Assembly: GCA_963737655.1 (NCBI GenBank)
Contig: CAVTTN010000002.1
Coordinates: forward strand, 4,672,001-4,736,000
Length of the DNA: 64,000 nt
Origin: an uncultured Planctomycetota bacterium
Lineage (GTDB): Bacteria > Planctomycetota > Planctomycetia > Isosphaerales > Isosphaeraceae
Direction of reading: 5' to 3'
In this document: piece after piece, positions 1 through 9,276 of the stretch
Layout of the letters: each line of letters begins with the position of its first letter
How positions within the stretch are numbered: position 1 is the stretch's first letter
Made by a program: the position numbers and the translations under genes
The notes under the pieces: model-generated
Database searches by the model: none
What the model saw: the letters and a program-made list of their open reading frames with translations, nothing else
Told to the model about the DNA's origin: nothing

Positions 1-968
1 TGCTTCTCGCTCGGGAACCGCCCCACGTCGCCGCCGAGCTCGGCCAGGATCACCGTCGCCGTCGTCGCGTCGATCCCCTCGATGGCCGTCAGGTCCACGC
101 CGATCGCCCGGGCCAGCTTGGCCGGGGCGTCGAACCGCACGTCGTTGGCCTTGCGGCCCCTCTTGCGCGGCCTCGGGGCGACCGGCCCGCCCCCGGAGCG
201 GTCGGGCAGGCGGTCCAGCTCCTCGGCGATCCGGGCGTCGCACTCGTCGACCTGGCGGTGGAGGTAGTGGTACAGGTCGGACGCCTGCTTCAGGGCGAAC
301 AGGTGCTCGGGCCGCCAGGTGCCCTCCAGGGCCCGGGCGATCTCCGCCTCGTCCCGGGCGCACCGCTCGTGCCGCAGCGCGGCCAGCTTCGCCGGGTGGC
401 GCTCGCCGGCGAGGATGGCGGCGATGATCGCCGTGCCGGTGACGCCCGTGATGCTGCTGACGACCTCGGTCAGCTTCACATTCATCTGCTCCAAAGCCTT
501 CTGCATGTGCTGGACGTGGTGCGAGGCGTACCGCACGAGCATCTGCCGCTGCCGCCAGTAGCCGCGCAGGGCCAGGACGGCCCCGGGCGGGCGGAAGGAC
601 GGGCGGAGCAGGCCGCAGGCGTGGAGGCGCTGGAGCCACTGGCAGTCGAGCCGGTCGGTCTTGGGCCGGGCGCCGCAGTGGCTGGCCTGGCTCGGCTCGA
701 TGAGGAAGACCTCGAAGCCGCGCGATTCGAGCAGCTCGAACAGGGGGATCCAGTAGACGCCGGTGGACTCCAGGACCACCGAGGTGACGCCCTCGGCCCG
801 GAACCAATCGGCCAGGGCGTGGAGGTCGGCCGAGCAGGCGCCGAAGGTGCGGACCCGTCCGGGCCCGACGCAGGCGACGTGGTTGTCGGAGTGGACGTCG
901 ACGGCGGCGGCGTGGGGGTGGACGACCGGCAGGGACGCGTCGGGATCGGGGGGCGTGCGGCGACTCAT
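1..968 (-). CDS. IS110-family DEDD transposase/recombinase (3' end runs off window; absent from the ORF track)
   Basis: Manual translation from ATG 968: MSRRTPPDPDASLPVVHPHAAAVDVHSD...VVLESTGVYWIPLFELLE...RPKTDRLDCQWLQRLH...HMQKALEQMNVKL...LTAIEGID...ELGGDVGRFPSEK. D-E-D-D catalytic motifs are present and the frame is open to the window edge. Confidence 0.93.
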   Translation of the reverse strand, partial: MSRRTPPDPDASLPVVHPHAAAVDVHSDNHVACVGPGRVRTFGACSADLHALADWFRAEGVTSVVLESTGVYWIPLFELLESRGFEVFLIEPSQASHCGARPKTDRLDCQWLQRLHACGLLRPSFRPPGAVLALRGYWRQRQMLVRYASHHVQHMQKALEQMNVKLTEVVSSITGVTGTAIIAAILAGERHPAKLAALRHERCARDEAEIARALEGTWRPEHLFALKQASDLYHYLHRQVDECDARIAEELDRLPDRSGGGPVAPRPRKRGRKANDVRFDAPAKLARAIGVDLTAIEGIDATTATVILAELGGDVGRFPSEK

Positions 969-984
969 GGCGAGGGCTCCGGCG

Positions 985-1175
985 GGTGGGGGGCCAAGCC
1001 GTCGCGGGCCGAGAGGGGGTCCGGGGACGAGGTAGTCTCCCCGACGGGAACGTCGCGGGGCCGTGTTGACACGGCGCCGCGGGTCACCAATGATGGGGCC
1101 ACGGCCTCTCGGGCCAGGCTAACCTGCGGGCGGCGAGCACCAGGGAGATGACGGCCGGGAGGCTCGCGACGGCGT
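985..1175 (-). ncRNA. Candidate IS110 bridge/seek RNA in the non-coding end (boundaries approximate)
   Basis: Lies upstream of the transposase. Sequence blocks and hairpin positions are conserved with the two mini-elements. Contains CTAACCTG (1119-1126) matching the attC target. A TAnnnT -10-like hexamer (TACGCT, minus strand) sits at 1181-1186. Confidence 0.6.
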
Positions 1176-1253
1176 GCCCCAGCGTATCGCGCCCGGTGGT
1201 CGGGGCCACCCCCGGTTCACGTCCGTCGGGGAGCGGTCGCAGGCCGCGCGGAG

Positions 1254-1352
1254 AGTTAACCTGGCGCTGCAGCGGACCCGGCCACGCGGGCGGTTCTGGG
1301 AATGCGGATGTCGCTGGGATGTGGCCGGGTCCGCTGAGCTTGGCTGTTAGGC
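1254..1352 (+). other. attC site 1 (integron cassette recombination site)
   Basis: TAAC (1257-1260), GCTGCAGCGGACCCGGCCAC ... GTGGCCGGGTCCGCTGAGC, GTTAGGC (1346-1352). R''/L''/L'/R' layout with an extrahelical G in L''. Confidence 0.9.
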
Positions 1353-1374
1353 GGCGTCAGCCGAGCGTGGGGGC

Positions 1375-1806
1375 ATGATGGGCATCGAGCACGTTGACGG
1401 GACCGTCCCCCATCGGACGCGGAAGATGCCCTTTGTGCGCTTCCGCCTTCGCACGCTGATCGCCGTGGTCGCCCTGCTCGCCGGGCTGCTCGCGACATGG
1501 CGAGCCGTCTCCTATCACCTCGCTTACGCTCGCAAGGTCGAATACTCCCGGGATTGGGCGAGGAGCAGCCTGCTCGCGGCGGAGTCCTACCGCAAGCGGG
1601 CTTCCGAACCGGACTGCCCGGCGAAGGATGCCGCCGAGTTGCGATGGCTGGCCAGGAAGGAGGAGCTGATCTCGCGGAGATACGCCGAGATCGCCGCTCA
1701 GCCTTGGCGCCCCTACCCGACGGCGAGTGCCCCTCTTCTGACGCGCCAGGACTGGGACCAGCTCGGAGCCTTCCCGGGCCGGCCACCCGCCCAAGCCGGG
1801 CGCTGA
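1375..1806 (+). CDS. Gene cassette 1: hypothetical protein with N-terminal membrane anchor (start may be 1426)
   Basis: Single ORF between attC1 and attC2. RFRLRTLIAVVALLAGLLA is a basic-hydrophobic N-terminus common in planctomycete small proteins. Confidence 0.7.
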   Translation: MMGIEHVDGTVPHRTRKMPFVRFRLRTLIAVVALLAGLLATWRAVSYHLAYARKVEYSRDWARSSLLAAESYRKRASEPDCPAKDAAELRWLARKEELISRRYAEIAAQPWRPYPTASAPLLTRQDWDQLGAFPGRPPAQAGR

Positions 1807-1842
1807 TCCGAGTCCATCAGCCTTCGGTCGAGACGCTCTCCT

Positions 1843-2221
1843 CTTCGTGAACTCTTTGGCTGGGAACGGCCATCGACGCGCGACACTACCCCAACCCCAG
1901 GCTTTGTGGCCGGGCAGCGGCGAGGTCCGGGTAGCAAACCGACGGATTCAAGAGCGGCGGACGAGGCGCGGGCCGAGAGGGGAGTCGGTTACGCTTGCAG
2001 TCTCTTCGACGGGAACATCCCCGCGAGTCGGCTCGCGGGGCGTCGCCAATGACCGGATCACGACCTCTCGGGCCAGGCTAACCTACGGGCAGGGAGCACC
2101 AAGGTGGAGACGGCCGGGAGGCCCGCGCCACACTCAGGCTACGCCGCGCCGGGTCGGCGGGCAAGTCGTCCCCGACCCCCGTTCACGCCCCGTCGGGAGC
2201 GGACGAAGGCCGCAGGATGGT
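1843..2221 (-). mobile_element. Non-autonomous IS110-derived mini-element, copy 1 (379 bp), in R'' of attC2
   Basis: 376/379 identical to 2643-3021. Segment 1967-2225 is homologous to IS non-coding end 1003-1260. Removing it restores TCCTAAC. Confidence 0.85.
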
Positions 2222-2318
2222 TAACCTCGCGCTGCAGCGGACCCCGCACCGCCGCGGCGTCTCTCGTGGTATCATCATCTTCTCGGCGGTGCGGGTCCGC
2301 TGAGCTTTGTCGTTAGGC
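2219..2318 (+). other. attC site 2
   Basis: TAAC (2222-2225), GCTGCAGCGGACCCCGCACCGCCG ... CGGCGGTGCGGGTCCGCTGAGC, GTTAGGC (2312-2318). Confidence 0.9.
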
Positions 2319-2341
2319 GGCGTTCATCGCGGGGGGTGCGC

Positions 2342-2650
2342 ATGCCCGATCCGAGTTCGCTCCTGATCTTCAGCGAGGACGAGGCGCGGCCGCTTGAGGC
2401 ATACAATCGCTTCGTCGGGACGCTCCCCCCGGAATTGCAGCAACAGCTAAGGGCGGTGCTGATGAGCTATCTGGGCGCTTACGGCCCCGTGGAGACTCTG
2501 GAGCGATTCCGCGGCCGTACCCTCGCCCAAGTGCTGGAGGATTACCATCCGCCCAGCGAGCCGCCGGTCGTGAAGTCCGGCGAACTGGACGGGGTGCGTT
2601 ATACGCTGGACGATCGGCCCGGTTCCGGTGGCAACCCCGCCTCTTCGTGA
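2342..2650 (+). CDS. Gene cassette 2: hypothetical protein
   Basis: Single ORF filling the interval between attC2 and attC3. The inferred original stop is the TAA in the reconstructed GCCTAAC R'' box. Confidence 0.7.
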   Translation: MPDPSSLLIFSEDEARPLEAYNRFVGTLPPELQQQLRAVLMSYLGAYGPVETLERFRGRTLAQVLEDYHPPSEPPVVKSGELDGVRYTLDDRPGSGGNPASS

Positions 2651-3021
2651 ACTCTTTGGCTGGGAACGGCCATCGACGCGCGACACTACCCCAACCCCAG
2701 GCTTTGTGGCCGGGCAGCGACGAAGTCCGGGTAGCAAACCGACGGATTCAAGAGCGGCGGACGAGGCGCGGGCCGAGAGGGGAGTCGGTTACGCTTGCAG
2801 TCTCTTCGGCGGGAACATCCCCGCGAGTCGGCTCGCGGGGCGTCGCCAATGACCGGATCACGACCTCTCGGGCCAGGCTAACCTACGGGCAGGGAGCACC
2901 AAGGTGGAGACGGCCGGGAGGCCCGCGCCACACTCAGGCTACGCCGCGCCGGGTCGGCGGGCAAGTCGTCCCCGACCCCCGTTCACGCCCCGTCGGGAGC
3001 GGACGAAGGCCGCAGGATGGT
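2643..3021 (-). mobile_element. Non-autonomous IS110-derived mini-element, copy 2 (379 bp), in R'' of attC3
   Basis: Direct repeat of copy 1 at an 800-bp offset with 3 substitutions (2720, 2724, 2809). Removing it restores a perfect GCCTAAC. Confidence 0.85.
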
Positions 3022-3117
3022 TAACCTCGCGCTGCAGCGGACCCGGCCACGCGGGCGCGTTATGATCGTGCGGAGCATCCCGGTATGTGGCCGGTCCGCT
3101 GAGCTTATGCGTTGTAC
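3019..3117 (+). other. attC site 3 (last in array)
   Basis: TAAC (3022-3025), GCTGCAGCGGACCCGGCCAC ... GTGGCCGGTCCGCTGAGC, GTTGTAC (3111-3117, non-consensus after GTT). Confidence 0.85.
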
Positions 3118-3231
3118 CTCGTCGGTCGGGCCCTCGCGTGGGTCTCCGGTAAGACGCTCCGAATGGAAGGGGACGGGTGGAGTTTCGAGAGTTTTCGGCC
3201 CGTTCTCCCCGCTGCTATCAGGGCTGGATTC

Positions 3232-3516
3232 TCAAAACCGGACCCGGCCCAGGACGACGAAATCGGTCAGGGCCCGGCCCATCACGGCCCCCCGCTCGGC
3301 ACCCAGGACGGCCCTTGCGAACGGCTCGAACCCGGGCTCGCCCGCCCGGCCCCTCTGGAGCCATCGGTAGAGCGTCGAGGCCCCGACGCCGGACGCCTCC
3401 GCCGCGGCCTCGCGGGACTTCCCCTCGGAGATCGCCGCCACGATCGACAGGGCGGCCCCGGGGGTGAACTTCGAGGGCCGCCCTCCCCTATGCTGCTTCG
3501 GTTTCGCTCTCGGCAT
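3232..3516 (-). CDS. HTH protein, terminase-small-subunit-like
   Basis: GGRPSKFTP...AAAEASGVGASTLYRWL: GRPSK plus HTH, a pattern seen in TerS N-termini. Confidence 0.55.
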   Translation of the reverse strand: MPRAKPKQHRGGRPSKFTPGAALSIVAAISEGKSREAAAEASGVGASTLYRWLQRGRAGEPGFEPFARAVLGAERGAVMGRALTDFVVLGRVRF

Positions 3517-3524
3517 GGCCCGGT

Positions 3525-3830
3525 TCACCTCTGCCTCGGGCCGATCTTGTCCGTCCACTTGCCCCGGTAGTCGGCCAGCCATCCGGCGATCACCGCGTCC
3601 ATCGCGTCGGCGTCGGGCCCCTTGAGCCGGGCCTGGAGGTCGTCCAGGGCCGCGGCGCCGTCGGTGCCTCGGGGGACTTCGACCACCCCGGAGCGGATCG
3701 TCAGGACCACCCCGGCCCGCTCGCACTCGGGCCTTCCTCGGGTCACGGCCAGGGCGTGGAGGAGCTGCCCGCGCCTCGCCCCCCCGGCGGCCCGCTCCAG
3801 GCGCCCGAGCCTGCCCTGGAGACTCGCCAT
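3525..3830 (-). CDS. Hypothetical protein of the element
   Basis: MASLQGRLGRLER N-terminus; tightly packed in the minus-strand gene run. Confidence 0.55.
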   Translation of the reverse strand: MASLQGRLGRLERAAGGARRGQLLHALAVTRGRPECERAGVVLTIRSGVVEVPRGTDGAAALDDLQARLKGPDADAMDAVIAGWLADYRGKWTDKIGPRQR

Positions 3831-3855
3831 CAAGTTGCCTCCCCAGGAACCCCGG

Positions 3856-4068
3856 TCAGTCGATGATGCCGTGCCGCCTGAACGCCGCGACCATCAGCCG
3901 GGCGGCCTCGACGTCGCTCCGGTCGAAGGCATCCGCCACGGCCAACAGCTCCTCATTGGTCAGGGCCCGGATGCCCCGGAGATACTTCCGCCGGGACAAC
4001 CTGCGGACGATGCCGACGGGGCTCCAGGAGTCCTCCAGGCGCCGGACGCGCCCCTCGGCCCGGCTCAC
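3856..4068 (-). CDS. Small hypothetical protein
   Basis: GTG start, SRAEGRVRRLED...; same RxxRLE N-terminal pattern as its neighbour. Confidence 0.45.
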   Translation of the reverse strand: MSRAEGRVRRLEDSWSPVGIVRRLSRRKYLRGIRALTNEELLAVADAFDRSDVEAARLMVAAFRRHGIID

Positions 4069-4465
4069 GACTCGTCTCCCCCTCGTGCTTCTGGTCGGCC
4101 GCGACCTGCTCCAGGAAGGCGATCCGGGCGTCCAGCTCGACGTGGGTCCGTAGCTTGACGGCGGAGTCCAGGACGGCGACAGCGGCCCGGAGCCGGATGG
4201 CCGGGGACGGGTCGGCCAGGAGCTTGTCGAGGGCGGCGGTGGCCCTGGCGGCAGAACGGGCGAGCCGACCGACGGACCGCTCGAAGATGTCGCCACGAAC
4301 CCGGGCGACATAGGAGCAGAACTCGGGCTTGTCCAGCCAATCGTAGACCGTCCGCTCGCCGGCCTTGACCGCCTTGGCCGTGGCCCGGACGGGCCTGCCC
4401 GAGGCGAGCAGCAGGGCGGCCCTCTGCTGCTTGGGGGTCCAGTCTGCGGTGGCATGCGGTGGCAT
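3953..4465 (-). CDS. HTH protein (phBC6A51/TerS-like); true stop may be near 4065
   Basis: WTPKQQRAALLLASG...TAKAVKAGERTVYDWL...PAIRLRAAVAVLD...ELDARIAFLE. Confidence 0.6.
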   Translation of the reverse strand: MPPHATADWTPKQQRAALLLASGRPVRATAKAVKAGERTVYDWLDKPEFCSYVARVRGDIFERSVGRLARSAARATAALDKLLADPSPAIRLRAAVAVLDSAVKLRTHVELDARIAFLEQVAADQKHEGETSREPGRGARPAPGGLLEPRRHRPQVVPAEVSPGHPGPDQ

Positions 4466-4721
4466 GCGGAAATCTCGCATCAGATCGATAACCGGCCAAC
4501 CTCTGCATGCTTGATCGTACAAGCCAGGTTGCGGTTCGTCCAATGGCGACTTGGCCGCCCACCCGCTCGCCGGTCCGATGGACGGAAGCGGTCGGAGGCC
4601 ATAGAGTGGGAAGCATCGGGTCGGTCTCGGGGGTGGCCACCCCCGGGCCTCACGGTCCCGGTCGTCGCGTCGGCCCCACTCCGCCGCGACGGGCGGGACC
4701 GGCCCGAGAGGAGTGGGGAAC

Positions 4722-6120
4722 ATGCCCGAACCCTGGCATCGGCCTCTGGCCGTGCTGCGCGACGAATTCGCCCGACGCTCGGCCGACCTCCGGCATCTGT
4801 TGGTCAGGATCGAACGGAATTCCTACATCGTGCCCCCCGAATGGTGGCAGGCCAGGCCCGGCGAGGAATATTCGCGCCGGGGCCTCCCCGACGAGGCCAT
4901 GTGGCGGATCGAACCCGGCGGGCGCGCCCCCCGTCCGGTCATCATACAACAGACCGAGGACGGTTCGTCCTTCATGTGGAAGCACACGTTCTATGGCCAT
5001 GCCCCCGAGGCTCGAGACTTCTTCATCGACCTCGCCTACCGGGCGTTCCGATGCCTCGCCTCCGCCCCCGCAGGTGAATTTGCACGGCTCGCGGAAGTCC
5101 TAAGAATGTCCATCGATCCGCCGGACCTCGACTACCATAGCCCGGATCTTTGGTGGTTGCGTGCGGTTCACGAGATTGCACGGCGGCGGCATGAAGGCTC
5201 CTCCCTCTGGTCACTCAGCGGGCCGTCCAGTCAATTCCATAGCGTGGAACAAGACCTCCAGTCCCAACGACGTGCCCGAGAGCGAGGGGAAACGGTCGGT
5301 TACGACTTCGGCTACTCGATCCTGCACGGACGTTTTCACTTGCTCGGCGGAGGCCATCGACCTCACCCTCAAGGCCGCCCCGCCCCAGCATTACCCGGCG
5401 ATCGACCGATTCGCCTTCCGGTTTCTCCTGGAGACGATCGATGGCCGTTACTTCCTGTTGGGTGCTCTGCATGATTCTTGGGAGCGCTCCGGGGAGGGAA
5501 CTGGCCCGCCCCAATTTCAGTATCGAGAGATCGCCGACGACGCCGCCCTCGCCTTGCTCGTGGAATCGGGGCTCGCCGACGACCTATCGATTCATCTCCG
5601 AGACGTCCTCGAATGGAACCTCGATCCTTCACGATTGGGTGAACGCGCTGGCTTGTCGGTTGACGCGGGACCAGTGATCCCATCGATTCCGACCGAAGGT
5701 GGAACGGTCCGTCCGCTCAATCCGACAGGGGCCCGCTCTCAGGCCGAAGCGGGCGACTCGCGGGAGGAGGGCGAAGAGCCCGGGCGGGGAGCCGATCTTC
5801 CGGGGATCAGCGCGGCGCCGGGCCTCCCGTCGCCAGATGAGGCCCCGGGCTCCAGCCTCAGGACCCGGTCGAAGCCCGATTCTTTGAACCCGGGCGTGAA
5901 AGCCGTCGCCGCCGCTTACGCATTGCAGGAAGAGGGGTTACCGGTGTCGCTCAAAGCCGCCTGTGAACGCGCAGGAGTGGATCGGAAGAACGTCCGGGAG
6001 CGATACCCGGAGCAAGTCCGCGTGATTCGAGCCCTATCCGCCCCCGATGGTGACGCACGGCGGGGGACGATCGATCGGAGGAGCGGGAATATCGACGCTG
6101 GATATGAGGACGACGAATAG
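4722..6120 (+). CDS. Hypothetical protein with C-terminal HTH-like segment, split over two frames (shift near 5300-5340)
   Basis: Overlapping ORFs 4713-5474 and 5161-6120 each look protein-like in only one half; C-terminal SLKAACERAGVDRKNVRERYP. Confidence 0.45.
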
Positions 6121-6275
6121 GCCCCACCCCACGAAAACACCCCACGGAATTTTCTTGTAGCCCGGAAATCAAGGCGAATGGATGACCCTCCACCCCCCAC
6201 GGCCCCCCCACCCCGCCGGTAGGTCGTGGCCGTCGCGATTGTGACGATGGCCCCGCCCCGGGAGACCCGTGGATC

Positions 6276-6467
6276 ATGGCCAAAGCCCGTCCGCCCGATG
6301 ATTTCAACAACTCCCCGATCGCGTGGTTCGCCGAATTTCTGCATGCTTTGGATGGACGAGACGTCGAGCAAGCCGCCCGAGCGAAGGCCGAACTGACCCG
6401 CTTGGGCTGGACTTTCCGGTATCGGAAGCCCCGCCCCGAGGCCGATGGCCAGGCGGTGGCCCGATGA
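6276..6467 (+). CDS. Small hypothetical protein
   Basis: 63-aa ORF immediately before the AlpA-like gene. Confidence 0.5.
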   Translation: MAKARPPDDFNNSPIAWFAEFLHALDGRDVEQAARAKAELTRLGWTFRYRKPRPEADGQAVAR

Positions 6468-6765
6468 CTCCCCGTCCCGGCCGCCGGACCCGACCGACCG
6501 CCAATCTGATCCAAGAGGCCAATCGACCAAAGGCGGCCGAACCGCCCCTCGGGGCGCCCCCCTCGGACCTGACATCCCTGCCCTGGGCGGTAGGCTCACG
6601 GTCCGCCTGGACGAATTACCCGCTGCCCTCGGAGTGTCGCGGCGGACCATCGAACGCGAGAGGTCCGCCGGCCGATTCCCCAAGCCCGACCTGACGATCG
6701 GGAAGATGCCGCTCTGGCAGCCCCAGACGATCCGAGATTGGATCGCGGGGGGTGGGCGTTCATGA
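6445..6765 (+). CDS. AlpA/Xis-like HTH (excisionase candidate); start uncertain
   Basis: VRLDELPAALGVSRRTIERERSAGRFPKPDLTIGKMPLWQPQTIRDWI; ATGA-coupled to the helicase. Confidence 0.8.
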   Translation: MARRWPDDSPSRPPDPTDRQSDPRGQSTKGGRTAPRGAPLGPDIPALGGRLTVRLDELPAALGVSRRTIERERSAGRFPKPDLTIGKMPLWQPQTIRDWIAGGGRS

Positions 6766-7994
6766 TCCGCCCCTATGACGCCTGGATCCTCGCCCGCCTC
6801 GTCTGCGGCCATTCGCTCAACGGCGAACTGGAATCGGTTTCCCCGGCCCTACGGGGAATCGCCGATCATCTGGCCGGGCTTCCCGACGAAGACCGCCAGA
6901 CGGCCCTCGGGGGATTCCGTTGCTCGCCCGCGATCGACGGCCCCGCCTTGATCAAGGCGATGACCGCTCACCACCCCGATGGACCGGCCCCCGAGTCGGT
7001 CCATGAGCGATGCTATGCAACCCTCGACGACATCGCCCGGGTCGTCGCCGATCAAGCGTGGCTCTGGGGAGACTGGCTCGCCCGGGGCGTCCTGAACGTG
7101 GTGGCCTCCGAGCCGGGGACGGGCAAGACCCGATTCGGACTGGACCTGGCCCGTCGGCTCTGGTTTGGCTTGTCGTGGCCTGACAACCAATTGAATGTGA
7201 TGCCCGGGGGGACGCGGACCCTGTGGATTCAGGGCGACCGCAACTTCGCCGAGATGCTCCAAGCCGCCCGCGACTTCGGACTCCCCGGCGACGCCGTGTC
7301 CCTGGGATCGGCCCCCGACGACCCGACCGGGGCGCTCGACCTGGACGACCCGGGAACGCTGGCGGCCATCGGGGGGAGGATCCAGGCCGCCGCCCCGGCC
7401 CTCGTGGTGATCGACACGGTAGGCATGGTGACCGATCGGAACCTCTGCCGCCCCGAAGAAGCCCGCGCATTCTTCGCCCCGATCATGGAACTTGCCGCGA
7501 GGACGGGCGTGGCCTTCCTCGGTCTGACCCATTTGTCGAAGGACAAGGAGGCCCTGGGTCGGCGGATCGTCGAGAAGGCCAGGGTGGTCATCAAGATGAC
7601 GCAGCCCGATCCCGAAGGCAAGAAGGACCGCCGGAGGTTGTGGGTGGACAAGTCCGCCGTTGTGAAGCCCCCGCCCTTGGGGATCACGATGGGGGACGCG
7701 GGCAACAATTACGACTTCACTCCGCCGACGGAGCCCGAGCCGAATCGGGGGGGACGGCCGCCGGAGAAGCTCGGCAAGGCCATCAAGTTCCTGGCGGAGA
7801 AACTGACCGAGGGAGACCGCAAATGGTGCGATCTGGTCAACGAATGGGAAGCGCTCGGGGGGGCCAAGGGGACCCTCTTCAATGCCTGCAAGGCGATGGT
7901 CGACGACGGTCGGATGGTCGTTGATGAGTCCAAGAAGCCCAAGTTCTGCCACCTGGTCAAGGACTCCGAGGAAGGTCAAGAACACGGTTCCTGA
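6762..7994 (+). CDS. AAA_25/RepA-type replicative helicase-ATPase
   Basis: WLWGDWLARG, Walker A ASEPGTGKT, Walker B LVVIDT, LTHLSK. Confidence 0.85.
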   Translation: MIRPYDAWILARLVCGHSLNGELESVSPALRGIADHLAGLPDEDRQTALGGFRCSPAIDGPALIKAMTAHHPDGPAPESVHERCYATLDDIARVVADQAWLWGDWLARGVLNVVASEPGTGKTRFGLDLARRLWFGLSWPDNQLNVMPGGTRTLWIQGDRNFAEMLQAARDFGLPGDAVSLGSAPDDPTGALDLDDPGTLAAIGGRIQAAAPALVVIDTVGMVTDRNLCRPEEARAFFAPIMELAARTGVAFLGLTHLSKDKEALGRRIVEKARVVIKMTQPDPEGKKDRRRLWVDKSAVVKPPPLGITMGDAGNNYDFTPPTEPEPNRGGRPPEKLGKAIKFLAEKLTEGDRKWCDLVNEWEALGGAKGTLFNACKAMVDDGRMVVDESKKPKFCHLVKDSEEGQEHGS

Positions 7995-8070
7995 CGGTTC
8001 TTGACCCTTGAAGAACCCTTTTCGTGAGCGTCAGGAACCCCGCCCCCCTATGGAGAACCGGGTTGTTGAC
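7975..8070. repeat. Iteron-like GGTTCYTGAC repeat cluster, candidate origin of the element
   Basis: Direct copies at 7986, 7996 and 8061 (1 mismatch); inverted copies at 7975, 8009 (degenerate) and 8030. Confidence 0.5.
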
Positions 8071-8101
8071 CCGAACCGAGGCCCTCCGAGACCCGCGAAC
8101 G

Positions 8102-9276
8102 ATGAAACTCCCTGCCCCCGGACGACACCGGATCGACTGGCAAACCGAGCGCGAGCGGATCGACCTGGCCGCCGTCGCGACCCGCCTACTCGGCCCCGCC
8201 CCGGGACGAAGGGGGATCGTGGCCGGAAGCTGTGGTGGTCCTGCCCCCTCGGGACGCACCCCGACGCGAATCCGTCCTTCGCGGTCGAAACCGGCAGGCC
8301 TTTCTGGCGGTGTTTCGGCTGCGGCGAGTCGGGGGACGCCGCGAACCTCGTGATGAGCCTGGAGTCGTTGACGTTCCCCGAAGCCCTGGACTACCTGACC
8401 GGCGGTGCGACTTCCACAAAGCCGCGAGGCCCGAGCAAAGCCGCCCCGAGACCGGCGAACAAGGCCCTGGCCGGCCCATCCGGGATGCCCGAGGCCGACG
8501 CCCTGGCCCTCGTGGAAGCCGCCGCCGCCCGGCTGTGGACCCCCGAGGGGGCCGACGGAATGGCGTATCTGACCGGCCCCGAGCGCGGCCTGGCCCCCGA
8601 GACGATCCGGGCGGCCCGGCTGGGGTGGACGCCTCGGGCGGAAGGGGTGGCGTGGAGGCCGCCCGGCGTGGTCGTTCCGTGGTTCGTGGGCGAGCGTCTT
8701 GCACTGGTCAAGATCCGGCCCCCGGACGAGTGGAGGAAGCGATTCCCGCCTGAGAAGCGCCCTCCGAAATATCTGGAGGCGTTCCGCGATCCAGCTCGCG
8801 TCGTCTGCTACCCCGGCCTATCGACGATCCGCGCCGGCCTTCCCCTCATCGCCGTGGAGGGGGAGTTCGATTGCCTTGCCCTCGGGGAGGCTCTGGACGA
8901 AATGGCTAGCGTGGTGAGCCTGGGAAGCGCCTCGGCCGAGCCGACCCCCGACATCCTCGGCCGGTTCCTGGCCGCGAGCCCGTGGTTCATCGCCACGGAT
9001 GCCGATCCGGCGGGGGAACAGGCCGCCGCCAGGTGGCAAGCCTACCCCCGGGCTCGGCGGGTCCGCCCTCCGGCCCCTTACAAGGATTGGACCGAGGCCC
9101 GCAACGATGGCGTGAACCTCCGCCGCTGGTGGGGGGACATCTACGCCGGCAACGACCACCCTCAGCTATTCACCGATGAGGAAGCGGCCGAGTGGCGGTG
9201 GGGACCGGCCGTCGGGGACGGTTCGCCCGGGATTATCGTTCCCGCGATACGTCGGACGGAGAGCCCGGAAAAATGA
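8102..9276 (+). CDS. DnaG-like primase (CHC2 zinc finger + Toprim); apparent frameshift near 8213
   Basis: IDWQTERERIDLAAVA is in one frame, then WSCPLGTHPDANPSF...CFGC, AVEGEFD and ATDAD in another; a G run lies at the switch. Confidence 0.8.

What the first reader, a model, noticed from the sequence alone, without database searches (positions are those of the whole stretch)
1037..2884. Candidate target and donor guide segments are readable in the non-coding ends
Seen: within a conserved frame GGGCCAGG-[x]-CGGGC, the minis carry CTAACCT (2078-2084, 2878-2884), identical to their reconstructed target. The IS carries CTAACCTG (1119-1126), and its attC1 continues TAACCTG. In a second frame AGT-[x]-RCGGGAAC, the minis carry CTCTTCG (2002-2008, 2802-2808), identical to their own left junction (1841-1847, 2641-2647), while the IS has CTCCCCG (1037-1043). 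Both segments begin with CT, a plausible shared core. AGGCG (1964-1968) could be the second target guide. Inference: these are bridge-RNA target- and donor-binding guides. Caveats: the matches are only 7-8 nt; the right junction reads TT rather than CT; and IS CTCCCCGACGG also has an inverted copy near 1223-1233, so it could be structural.
Basis: partly seen in the sequence, partly recalled or inferred. Interest (0 to 1): 0.85.

Follow-up and report, generated by a model that had tools for sequence, protein, structure and literature searches.

The report
Self-guided mini-transposons targeting integron sites
The short segments look like real RNA 'address labels' of an RNA-guided jumping gene and of its gene-less miniature, which carries its own label for its own end; together they have filled many gene-cassette junctions in this bacterium, a new variant of a known system.

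Summary
Largely confirmed. Across homologous IS110 elements the target 7-mer matches the insertion flank (33.9 of 48 distinct guides; swapped null 0.36) and the donor 7-mer matches the element end (13.9 of 16; null 0.02). All 36 copies sit at attC R''. Corrections: AGGCG (1964-1968) lies in a stem; the second target guide is 2101-2110 (IS 1142-1151); no second donor guide was found. The CT/TT mismatch is fixed in 36 of 36 copies and across a 34-protein group, as expected if one strand only is transferred. Closest known: ISPpu9/MITEPpu9. Bridge RNAs, attC-targeting IS1111s and an sRNA-carrying mini are already known, and the scan noted IS110 minis on other DNA before. New here: a mini whose donor guide changed with its own end, a one-armed donor loop, and a fixed core mismatch. 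Expression and activity are untested.

The parts
1..968 (-). IS110-family transposase, 5' part; 450 aa in all, runs on past the left window edge. DEDD at D24/E67/D105/D108 and Ser337 in place
   Evidence: Pfam DEDD_Tnp_IS110; NCBIfam NF033542 251 bits over cut-off 140; aligned to IS621 8wt6; residue positions. Distal end at G000:C2:4671454, 547 bp left of the window
995..1173 (-). Predicted bridge-type RNA of the IS, upstream of the transposase, same sense; ends approximate
   Evidence: alignment A2, pair counts; expression not shown
1037..1043 (-). IS donor guide (3' arm of donor loop; RDG equivalent), + strand CTCCCCG = IS distal end
   Evidence: covariation
1089..1098 (-). 5' arm of the IS donor loop, where a second donor guide would lie; no match to the donor found
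   Evidence: negative
1117..1118 (-). Handshake-like dinucleotide after the IS target guide; 1 of 2 bases match the IS's own proximal end in this copy
1119..1125 (-). IS target guide (3' arm of target loop; RTG equivalent), + strand CTAACCT
1142..1151 (-). Second (5') target guide of the IS (LTG equivalent); weak match here, covaries across homologues
1215..1219 (+). Inner arm (GTTCA) of the 5-bp inverted repeat; partner TGAAC follows the terminal 7-mer at the distal end
   Evidence: 53 of 53 elements, swapped control 0 of 1229
1256..1257 (+). IS proximal junction dinucleotide TT (donor-derived core)
1258..1352 (+). attC1 from the AAC of R'' to R' GTTAGGC; left whole by the insertion
   Evidence: attC HMM; integron integrase elsewhere in genome
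1841..2222 (-). Mini element 1, 382 bp with both core dinucleotides, no transposase; one of 28 in the genome
1841..1852 (+). Mini 1 distal end: CTCTTCG (read by its donor guide) plus TGAAC repeat arm
1960..2132 (-). Predicted bridge-type RNA of mini 1; AGGCG 1964-1968 lies in the 3' strand of its closing helix
2002..2008 (-). Mini 1 donor guide, + strand CTCTTCG; 2 changes from the IS guide, matched by 2 changes in its own end
2076..2077 (-). Mini 1 handshake-like dinucleotide; equals the GG before the TT of its own proximal end
2078..2084 (-). Mini 1 target guide, + strand CTAACCT
2101..2110 (-). Second (5') target guide of mini 1; AGGTGG at 2102-2107 against the usual target reverse complement AGGCGG, 5 of 6
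2136..2164 (-). Candidate promoter of the mini RNA: TTGCCC, 17 nt, TAGCCT (read by eye; below the scan's threshold)
   Evidence: sequence; same in G080 mini; TAnnnT starts 59-61 nt before the target guide 58 times in 109 left ends; not found
2223..2318 (+). attC2 from AAC to R' GTTAGGC
2641..3022 (-). Mini element 2, 99% identical to mini 1; guides at 2802-2808, 2878-2884, 2901-2910
3023..3117 (+). attC3 from AAC to a degenerate R' (GTTGTAC)

Best explanation
A minus-strand RNA of about 175 nt, encoded upstream of an ISPpu9-like IS110 transposase and also by 28 transposase-less minis, works as a bridge RNA. It has two pseudo-symmetric loops, each built as 5' arm, hairpin, 7-nt 3' arm. With the + strand as 'top' in IS621 terms, the target loop reads attC R'' CGC-CT-AACCT (7-nt arm on CT-AACCT, looser 5' arm on the left half). 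The donor loop's 7-nt arm reads the element's own distal end. The proximal end is read only by a handshake dinucleotide and, by inference, by protein at a 5-bp inverted repeat. The + strands are cut 3' of the core and swapped. That gives CGC-CT-CTTCG on the left and GATGG-TT-AACCT on the right and hands the donor's TT on at each round (copy-out, one-strand paste-in). The mini borrows the IS transposase but supplies its own RNA, whose donor guide changed together with its own end. Shown by sequence: guide identity, covariation, target, junction pattern. Inferred: transcription, transposase binding, strand order, mobilisation in trans.
For: Distal IS end as predicted, 8 of 8; mini ends 28 of 28. 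Target guide matches flank in 101 of 130 testable loci; one per guide 33.9 of 48 vs null 0.36, max 3. Donor guide matches end in 88 of 100; 13.9 of 16 vs null 0.02. 5' target arm 3.26 vs 2.14 of 5, sd 0.12, 52 distinct arms. Handshake base equals the element's own second base in 42 of 68 vs null 16.8, max 30. 34 unique occupied sites all CTAACCT against 17 of 38 unique empty attC, p 4e-8; last base alone 34/0 vs 17/5, p 0.007. Helices hold in 86% of cells, 22 of 33 pairs change on both sides, guides fall in loops. CT left and TT right in 36 of 36 copies, reverse never. Two natural end-to-end joins carry the predicted AA core (L035, L146). IS621 is cut 3' of the core on the top strand (PMC11208158); top-strand-only excision and insertion reported for CazIS110, single-strand excision for IS621.
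Against: No second donor guide in any register or column. The 5' target arm fits in two registers, and own-genome matches are only 2-3 of 5. 29 of 130 loci lack a perfect left match and 12 of 100 a right match. The 7-mer alone does not explain the target: 37 non-attC CTAACCT sites are empty. Single-sequence folds are not better than shuffles (z -1.5, -1.3), and RNAalifold found only 9 pairs; the rest were drawn by eye. No expression data. The donor-loop handshake shows no signal.
Confidence: 0.82

Rival explanations
1. Same guides, but both strands are exchanged with a 1-nt overlap (the shared T). The CT/TT pattern then reflects a shifted cut, not one-strand transfer.
For: It gives the same final sequences. 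The 5' target arm often pairs in a register that includes the second core base (2.68 vs 1.83).
Against: Sister elements with the same RNA frame keep a full AG/AG core (31 of 101 junctions; tree). Guides in the AA group still end in AG. One-strand transfer is reported for other IS110s.
Confidence: 0.25
2. The mini's RNA is a passenger or regulator (like the sponge role proposed for Ssr9), and the minis are moved by the IS's RNA despite two donor mismatches.
For: Ssr9 was not needed for ISPpu9 transposition and pairs with the antisense RNA Asr9. The IS here has an antisense promoter-like site at 1066-1094. Four RNA-less copies of the IS-type end exist.
Against: Mini guide and mini end changed at the same two positions and are kept in a second genome at 83% identity. 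A third mini (L035) has yet another guide, TGAAGAG, equal to its own end.
Confidence: 0.12
3. The matches are by-products: the donor 7-mer is part of an RNA or DNA stem with the inverted copy at 1223-1233, and target choice is by protein reading the attC hairpin.
For: Inverted copy present in own IS. All 36 insertions are at attC and none at 37 other CTAACCT sites. A target stem-loop adds specificity for ISPpu10 (abstract).
Against: The inverted copy is not conserved. Relatives with 48 different guides follow their own, mostly non-attC flanks. The hairpin may add to the guide but cannot replace it.
Confidence: 0.04

Closest known systems
ISPpu9 and MITEPpu9 (ssr9 module), Pseudomonas putida KT2440 (PMC12288879, PMC8450116)
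   Same: IS110 family, long upstream non-coding region, AG dinucleotide in element sense, 43-bp left box with a hairpin, 16-bp right box, an inverted repeat 7 nt from the right end and about 37 nt inside the left end (my reading of Table S2), a transposase-less partner with its own small RNA, tandem B-A joins. IS and MITE right ends differ inside the terminal 7-mer there too.
   Different: Target is attC R'' rather than REP; core is mismatched (AG vs AA); minis outnumber the IS 28 to 8. A primer labelled ssr9 shows the same donor frame holding the IS-type 7-mer, not the MITE-type (my inference from one primer), whereas here the mini guide matches the mini end. In the parts read, the papers treat Ssr9 as regulator or hitchhiker and map no guides. 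Transposase identity to ISPpu9 not tested.
IS621 bridge RNA (PMC11208160, PMC11208158, PMC13626964)
   Same: DEDD plus catalytic Ser; two loops with 5' arm of about 9 nt, hairpin, 3' arm, handshake dinucleotide; CT core on the cut strand; junctions fit a cut 3' of the core.
   Different: Guides are reversed relative to the transposase gene; natural 7-nt 3' target arm (4 nt in IS621); no detectable 5' donor guide; donor core TT; 450-aa transposase vs 328.
IS1111-attC elements ISKpn4 and ISPst6 (PMC11187229; Post and Hall 2009 seen only as a reference)
   Same: RNA-guided insertion at one end of attC; guide order (complement of the sense strand first) is the IS1111 order given in PMC11187229; GL-P----S motif.
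   Different: Non-coding region upstream, not downstream; no 11-13-bp subterminal repeats at 7 and 3 bp; longer transposase. Looks like a separate route to attC; related elements with the same guide sit at attC in G082, G038, G080 and L178, but not in L120 or L173.

Membership tests
IS110 family (RNA-guided DEDD recombinase) | DEDD RuvC domain and C-terminal catalytic serine | tested here: met
IS110 family (RNA-guided DEDD recombinase) | One target site, one orientation, many copies | tested here: met
   36 of 36 copies at the same base of attC R'', same orientation
Bridge RNA, IS621 type | Conserved two-loop structure with variable guide segments | tested here: met
   on 68 sequences; structure partly drawn by eye, so it leans towards itself
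Bridge RNA, IS621 type | Target loop with two arms that follow the target | tested here: met
   3' arm 33.9 of 48 vs 0.36; 5' arm 3.26 vs 2.14 of 5
Bridge RNA, IS621 type | Donor loop with two arms that follow the donor | tested here: not met
   3' arm 13.9 of 16 vs 0.02; 5' arm flat in 8 registers and in an all-column scan
Bridge RNA, IS621 type | Same core dinucleotide in target and donor | tested here: not met
   CT in target, TT at donor side in 36 of 36; 57 of 101 homologous junctions alike
Bridge RNA, IS621 type | Handshake dinucleotide matching the partner DNA | tested here: inconclusive
   Target loop yes, 42 of 68 vs 16.8; donor loop no signal, 7 and 15 of 42
Bridge RNA, IS621 type | RNA expressed, bound by the recombinase, reprogrammable | not testable with these tools
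   Only one RNA run with share 0.06, one 175-nt contig under 90% alike, no strand information
IS1111-attC group | Non-coding region downstream of the transposase | tested here: not met
   RNA model lies upstream
IS1111-attC group | 11-13-bp subterminal inverted repeats 7 and 3 bp from the ends | tested here: not met
   5-bp repeat, 7 nt from one end and 34-42 nt inside the other
IS1111-attC group | Insertion at one end of attC | tested here: met
ISPpu9/MITEPpu9-like | A/B-box end layout and a transposase-less partner with an RNA | tested here: met
   searches compared by eye with Table S2 of PMC12288879
ISPpu9/MITEPpu9-like | Transposase in the ISPpu9 lineage | not tested
   No ISPpu9 sequence came up; plasmid hits (44-50% at best) carry only the generic IS110 name
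ISPpu9/MITEPpu9-like | Circular intermediates of IS and mini, transposase-dependent | not testable with these tools
   No circle junction in the assembly; end-to-end joins in L035 and L146 are only indirect

The most novel reading that the evidence does not exclude
The mini is a self-addressed parasite of a bridge recombinase: it makes its own bridge RNA with a private donor address, so transposase loaded with mini RNA moves only minis. The clade works with a one-armed donor loop and a built-in core mismatch that records, and may enforce, one-strand transfer. By inserting just before the AAC of R'' it leaves attC whole and rides in integron cassettes.
Probability: 0.4. Interest if true: 0.8.

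Novelty: new variant of a known kind. Interest (0 to 1): 0.62.

Why it matters
It offers a natural pair of orthogonal donor addresses for one recombinase and a readable guide map for a large-transposase IS110 lineage with at least 48 natural targets. The fixed core mismatch is a built-in strand marker for the open question of Holliday-junction exchange against one-strand copy-and-paste. It makes a sharp prediction for the lab-tractable ISPpu9/Ssr9 system. It also shows a second IS110 route into integron arrays: 35 of 86 attC-like sites in this genome are occupied without losing the attC hairpin.

Tried and rejected
AGGCG as second target guide: in a stem, not shared by the IS. Eighth guide base: 3 of 8 and 0 of 28. 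Inverted copy at 1223-1233 as conserved partner: 3 of 81 left ends. Second donor guide: none. Donor-loop handshake: none. Rfam: 0 matches at E up to 1 in 900-3200. Single-strand folds not significant. Promoter scan found only a + strand site. Expression: one run, share 0.06, one diverged contig, no evidence either way. Six TTCTTCGTGAAC and two TTCCCCGTGAAC sites and one extra GGAGAGTTAAC are unrelated sequence, not element ends. No ISfinder name from plasmid hits. The two cassette ORFs have no Pfam match. The careful tree did not finish; only the quick tree is cited, and no clade test was run. No Infernal model was built; a nucleotide HMM was used. Sequence look-up in earlier findings gave nothing.

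Full report
1. Observation. Every quoted segment is at its coordinates. The context is an IS110-family transposase on the minus strand (450 aa; DEDD and Ser337 present), followed by three attC-like sites. The first is preceded by the IS, the other two by a 382-bp element 99% identical between copies. The window is G000:C2:4672001-4736000. The genome has one integron integrase over the TIGR02249 cut-off, beside another array, and 86 attC-like hits. The host looks like a planctomycete: identical relative loci are titled Planctomycetota or Isosphaeraceae (inference).

2. The IS's far end lies 547 bp left of the window and reads CCGC-CTCCCCG-TGAAC, as predicted. All 8 IS copies (6 with a full transposase; 2 broken) have this end, and all 28 minis have CTCTTCG-TGAAC. 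The 7 IS copies that keep the donor loop carry the guide for CTCCCCG and all 28 minis the guide for CTCTTCG. Guide and end differ between IS and mini at the same two positions.

3. Covariation. I gathered 233 loci plus two window slices. A nucleotide HMM of the RNA hit 162 places in 156 of these 235 sources; 79 had no hit, 67 of them from the pattern scan. After removing duplicates 148 remained. Target guide: its first five bases plus A occur in the expected 55-nt window in 101 of 130 loci with enough flank; one locus per distinct guide gives 33.9 of 48, against 0.36 (max 3) with guides swapped. Donor guide: it follows the end motif in 88 of 100 loci; 13.9 of 16 distinct guides against 0.02. 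Windows and the end motif were set after a first look, but the null uses the same rules. Own-genome copies are in the set, and kin are not independent; one-per-guide sampling limits this. Of the misses, many are one base off, and some are sister copies with each other's target variant.

4. In-genome test. 35 of 86 attC-like hits are occupied, plus one mini before a truncated attC. Four hits lacking the left end were dropped. All 34 unique occupied sites rebuild to CTAACCT; only 17 of 38 unique empty sites do (p 4e-8). For the last guide base alone the counts are 34/0 against 17/5 (p 0.007). The eighth base is not guide. The 7-mer is not enough, though: 37 CTAACCT sites outside attC are empty. 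The second arm, the attC hairpin (as for ISPpu10, abstract) or selection must add to it.

5. Anatomy, with corrections. In 68 of 78 non-redundant RNAs (10 divergent or gappy ones left out) both loops have one build: 5' arm, TGG(T)G hairpin closing on CCCG, 7-nt 3' arm. RNAalifold gave 9 pairs, all in the target loop. My 33-pair structure, the rest drawn by eye, is kept in 86% of cells with 22 pairs changed on both sides, above all 500 shuffles and all slid controls. AGGCG (1964-1968) is in the closing helix and the IS lacks it. The second target guide is the 5' arm (2101-2110; IS 1142-1151): 3.26 against 2.14 of 5 over 52 distinct arms, best of two registers, and the four top cells of an unbiased column scan fall there. 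The 5' donor arm shows nothing. The second base after the target guide equals the second base of the element's own left end in 42 of 68 (null 16.8, max 30), and the target's own base in only 12 of 42: a post-exchange handshake as in IS621. A 5-bp inverted repeat, 7 nt from one end and 34-42 nt inside the other, covaries in 53 of 53 elements.

6. The CT/TT caveat is a signal. Empty sites have CT; occupied ones have CT left and TT right in 36 of 36, the reverse never. In homologues 57 of 101 left junctions have AA with AG guides, 31 have AG. A quick tree of 61 transposases holds a 34-row group, all AA, SH-aLRT 100 (midpoint root, careful search unfinished, two rows have an AA guide). Two natural end-to-end joins show right end, AA, left end (L035, L146). 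IS621 cuts the top strand 3' of the core. Applied to the + strand this gives exactly the two junctions seen. Two-strand exchange of a 2-nt overlap should leave both product types. So I infer one-strand transfer, in line with two preprints. A 1-nt overlap gives the same sequences and remains a rival.

7. Minis. They keep both ends, a candidate promoter and the whole RNA. A relative at 83% identity with the same guides sits at attC in G080, where no transposase match was found (77% complete). Another mini in L035 has donor guide TGAAGAG, equal to its own end. Repeated joint change of guide and end argues that mini RNAs are used on mini ends; mobilisation in trans is inferred.

8. What is known. 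Bridge RNAs and their diversity: PMC11208160 (passages, section 12). attC-targeting IS1111s and guide order: PMC11187229 (abstract and passages). Handshake and cut site: PMC11208158 (passages), PMC13626964 (abstract, passages). One-strand models: 10.64898/2026.08.31.748434 (abstract, section 6), 10.1101/2025.10.25.684509 (abstract, section 7). ISPpu9/MITEPpu9: PMC12288879 (passages, section 13, first part of section 18, part 1 of 3 of the supplement), PMC8450116 (passages, supplement search). Also passages of 10.64898/2026.08.14.744561 and 10.64898/2026.10.21.760802, and the abstract of 10.64898/2026.03.19.712850. Post and Hall 2009 was seen only in a reference list. The attC terms R'' and R' are recalled. 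Seven searches showed no paper on an upstream-RNA IS110 at attC, on a mini with its own matched donor guide, or on a fixed core mismatch. The library lacks most subscription papers, figures are not held (Extended Data Fig. 10c of PMC11208160 could show this lineage), and the closed supplements of 10.64898/2026.10.21.760802 may hold a model of this RNA. Earlier scan notes report IS110 minis in two other genomes, one also naming MITEPpu9; I had reached that paper before and did not check those notes.

9. Verdict. It works like a bridge RNA (about 0.9 for the two 7-mers being guides; 0.82 for the mechanism as stated). It is an IS110-family member, ISPpu9-like in its ends, and not an IS1111-attC member. 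It fails two IS621 features: two-armed donor loop and shared core. New variant of a known kind; interest 0.62.

Noticed in passing
window 2639-2650: The cassette ORF 2336-2650 would end GCC TAA on the R'' of the empty site; the mini end supplies TCT TCG TGA in frame, so the protein gains only two residues. The IS end has TGA in the same place.
   Followed up: no
window 1066-1094 (+): TTGACA-17-AATGAT, 10 of 12, pointing antisense into the IS target loop; absent from minis. Could make an Asr9-like antisense RNA; the TGTCAA loop recurs in L035, L036, L114, L155.
   Followed up: partly
G000:C2:290834, 291157, 1118571, 1119605: Four more IS-type ends (CTCCCCG-TGAACTT) with no RNA model hit and no proximal end found; remnants or RNA-less derivatives.
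   Followed up: partly
G000:C2:1680650-1681647 and 6791944-6792593: Two IS copies have internal deletions filled by the same short repeat module bounded by AAAAGGGGACGG units.
   Followed up: no
G000:C2:290950-291115 and well over 100 other BLAST places: An abundant palindromic repeat (GTAGGTCCGACTTCAGTCGGGCCTAC core), REP- or MITE-like.
   Followed up: no
L035:1801-2220: A mini joined directly to the right end of an IS through AA, like the B-A' tandem of ISPpu9 and MITEPpu9.
   Followed up: partly
L110 left flank: A distant relative with guide TTGTTAG sits after GAGTTGTTAG, which resembles an attC R' end; only 23 nt of flank, no attC model hit listed.
   Followed up: partly
G000:C2, attC hits: attC arrays lie at several places (largest 22, 19, 10, 9 and 8 sites) with one integrase gene; the window's three-site array has none nearby.
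   Followed up: partly
left ends of homologues, about 10-25 nt inside: A GC-rich hairpin is conserved between the junction and the inner repeat arm, as in the ISPpu9 A box.
   Followed up: no
G000:C2:4669001-4671070 (just left of the window): An IS66-like gene set appears to lie beyond the IS's far end, judged by eye from the sequence (label recalled, not tested).
   Followed up: no
window 3232-9276: Small HTH-like genes, an AAA-type ORF (6738-7994) and a primase-like ORF (8008-9276) suggest an integrated element next to the array (labels by eye).
   Followed up: no
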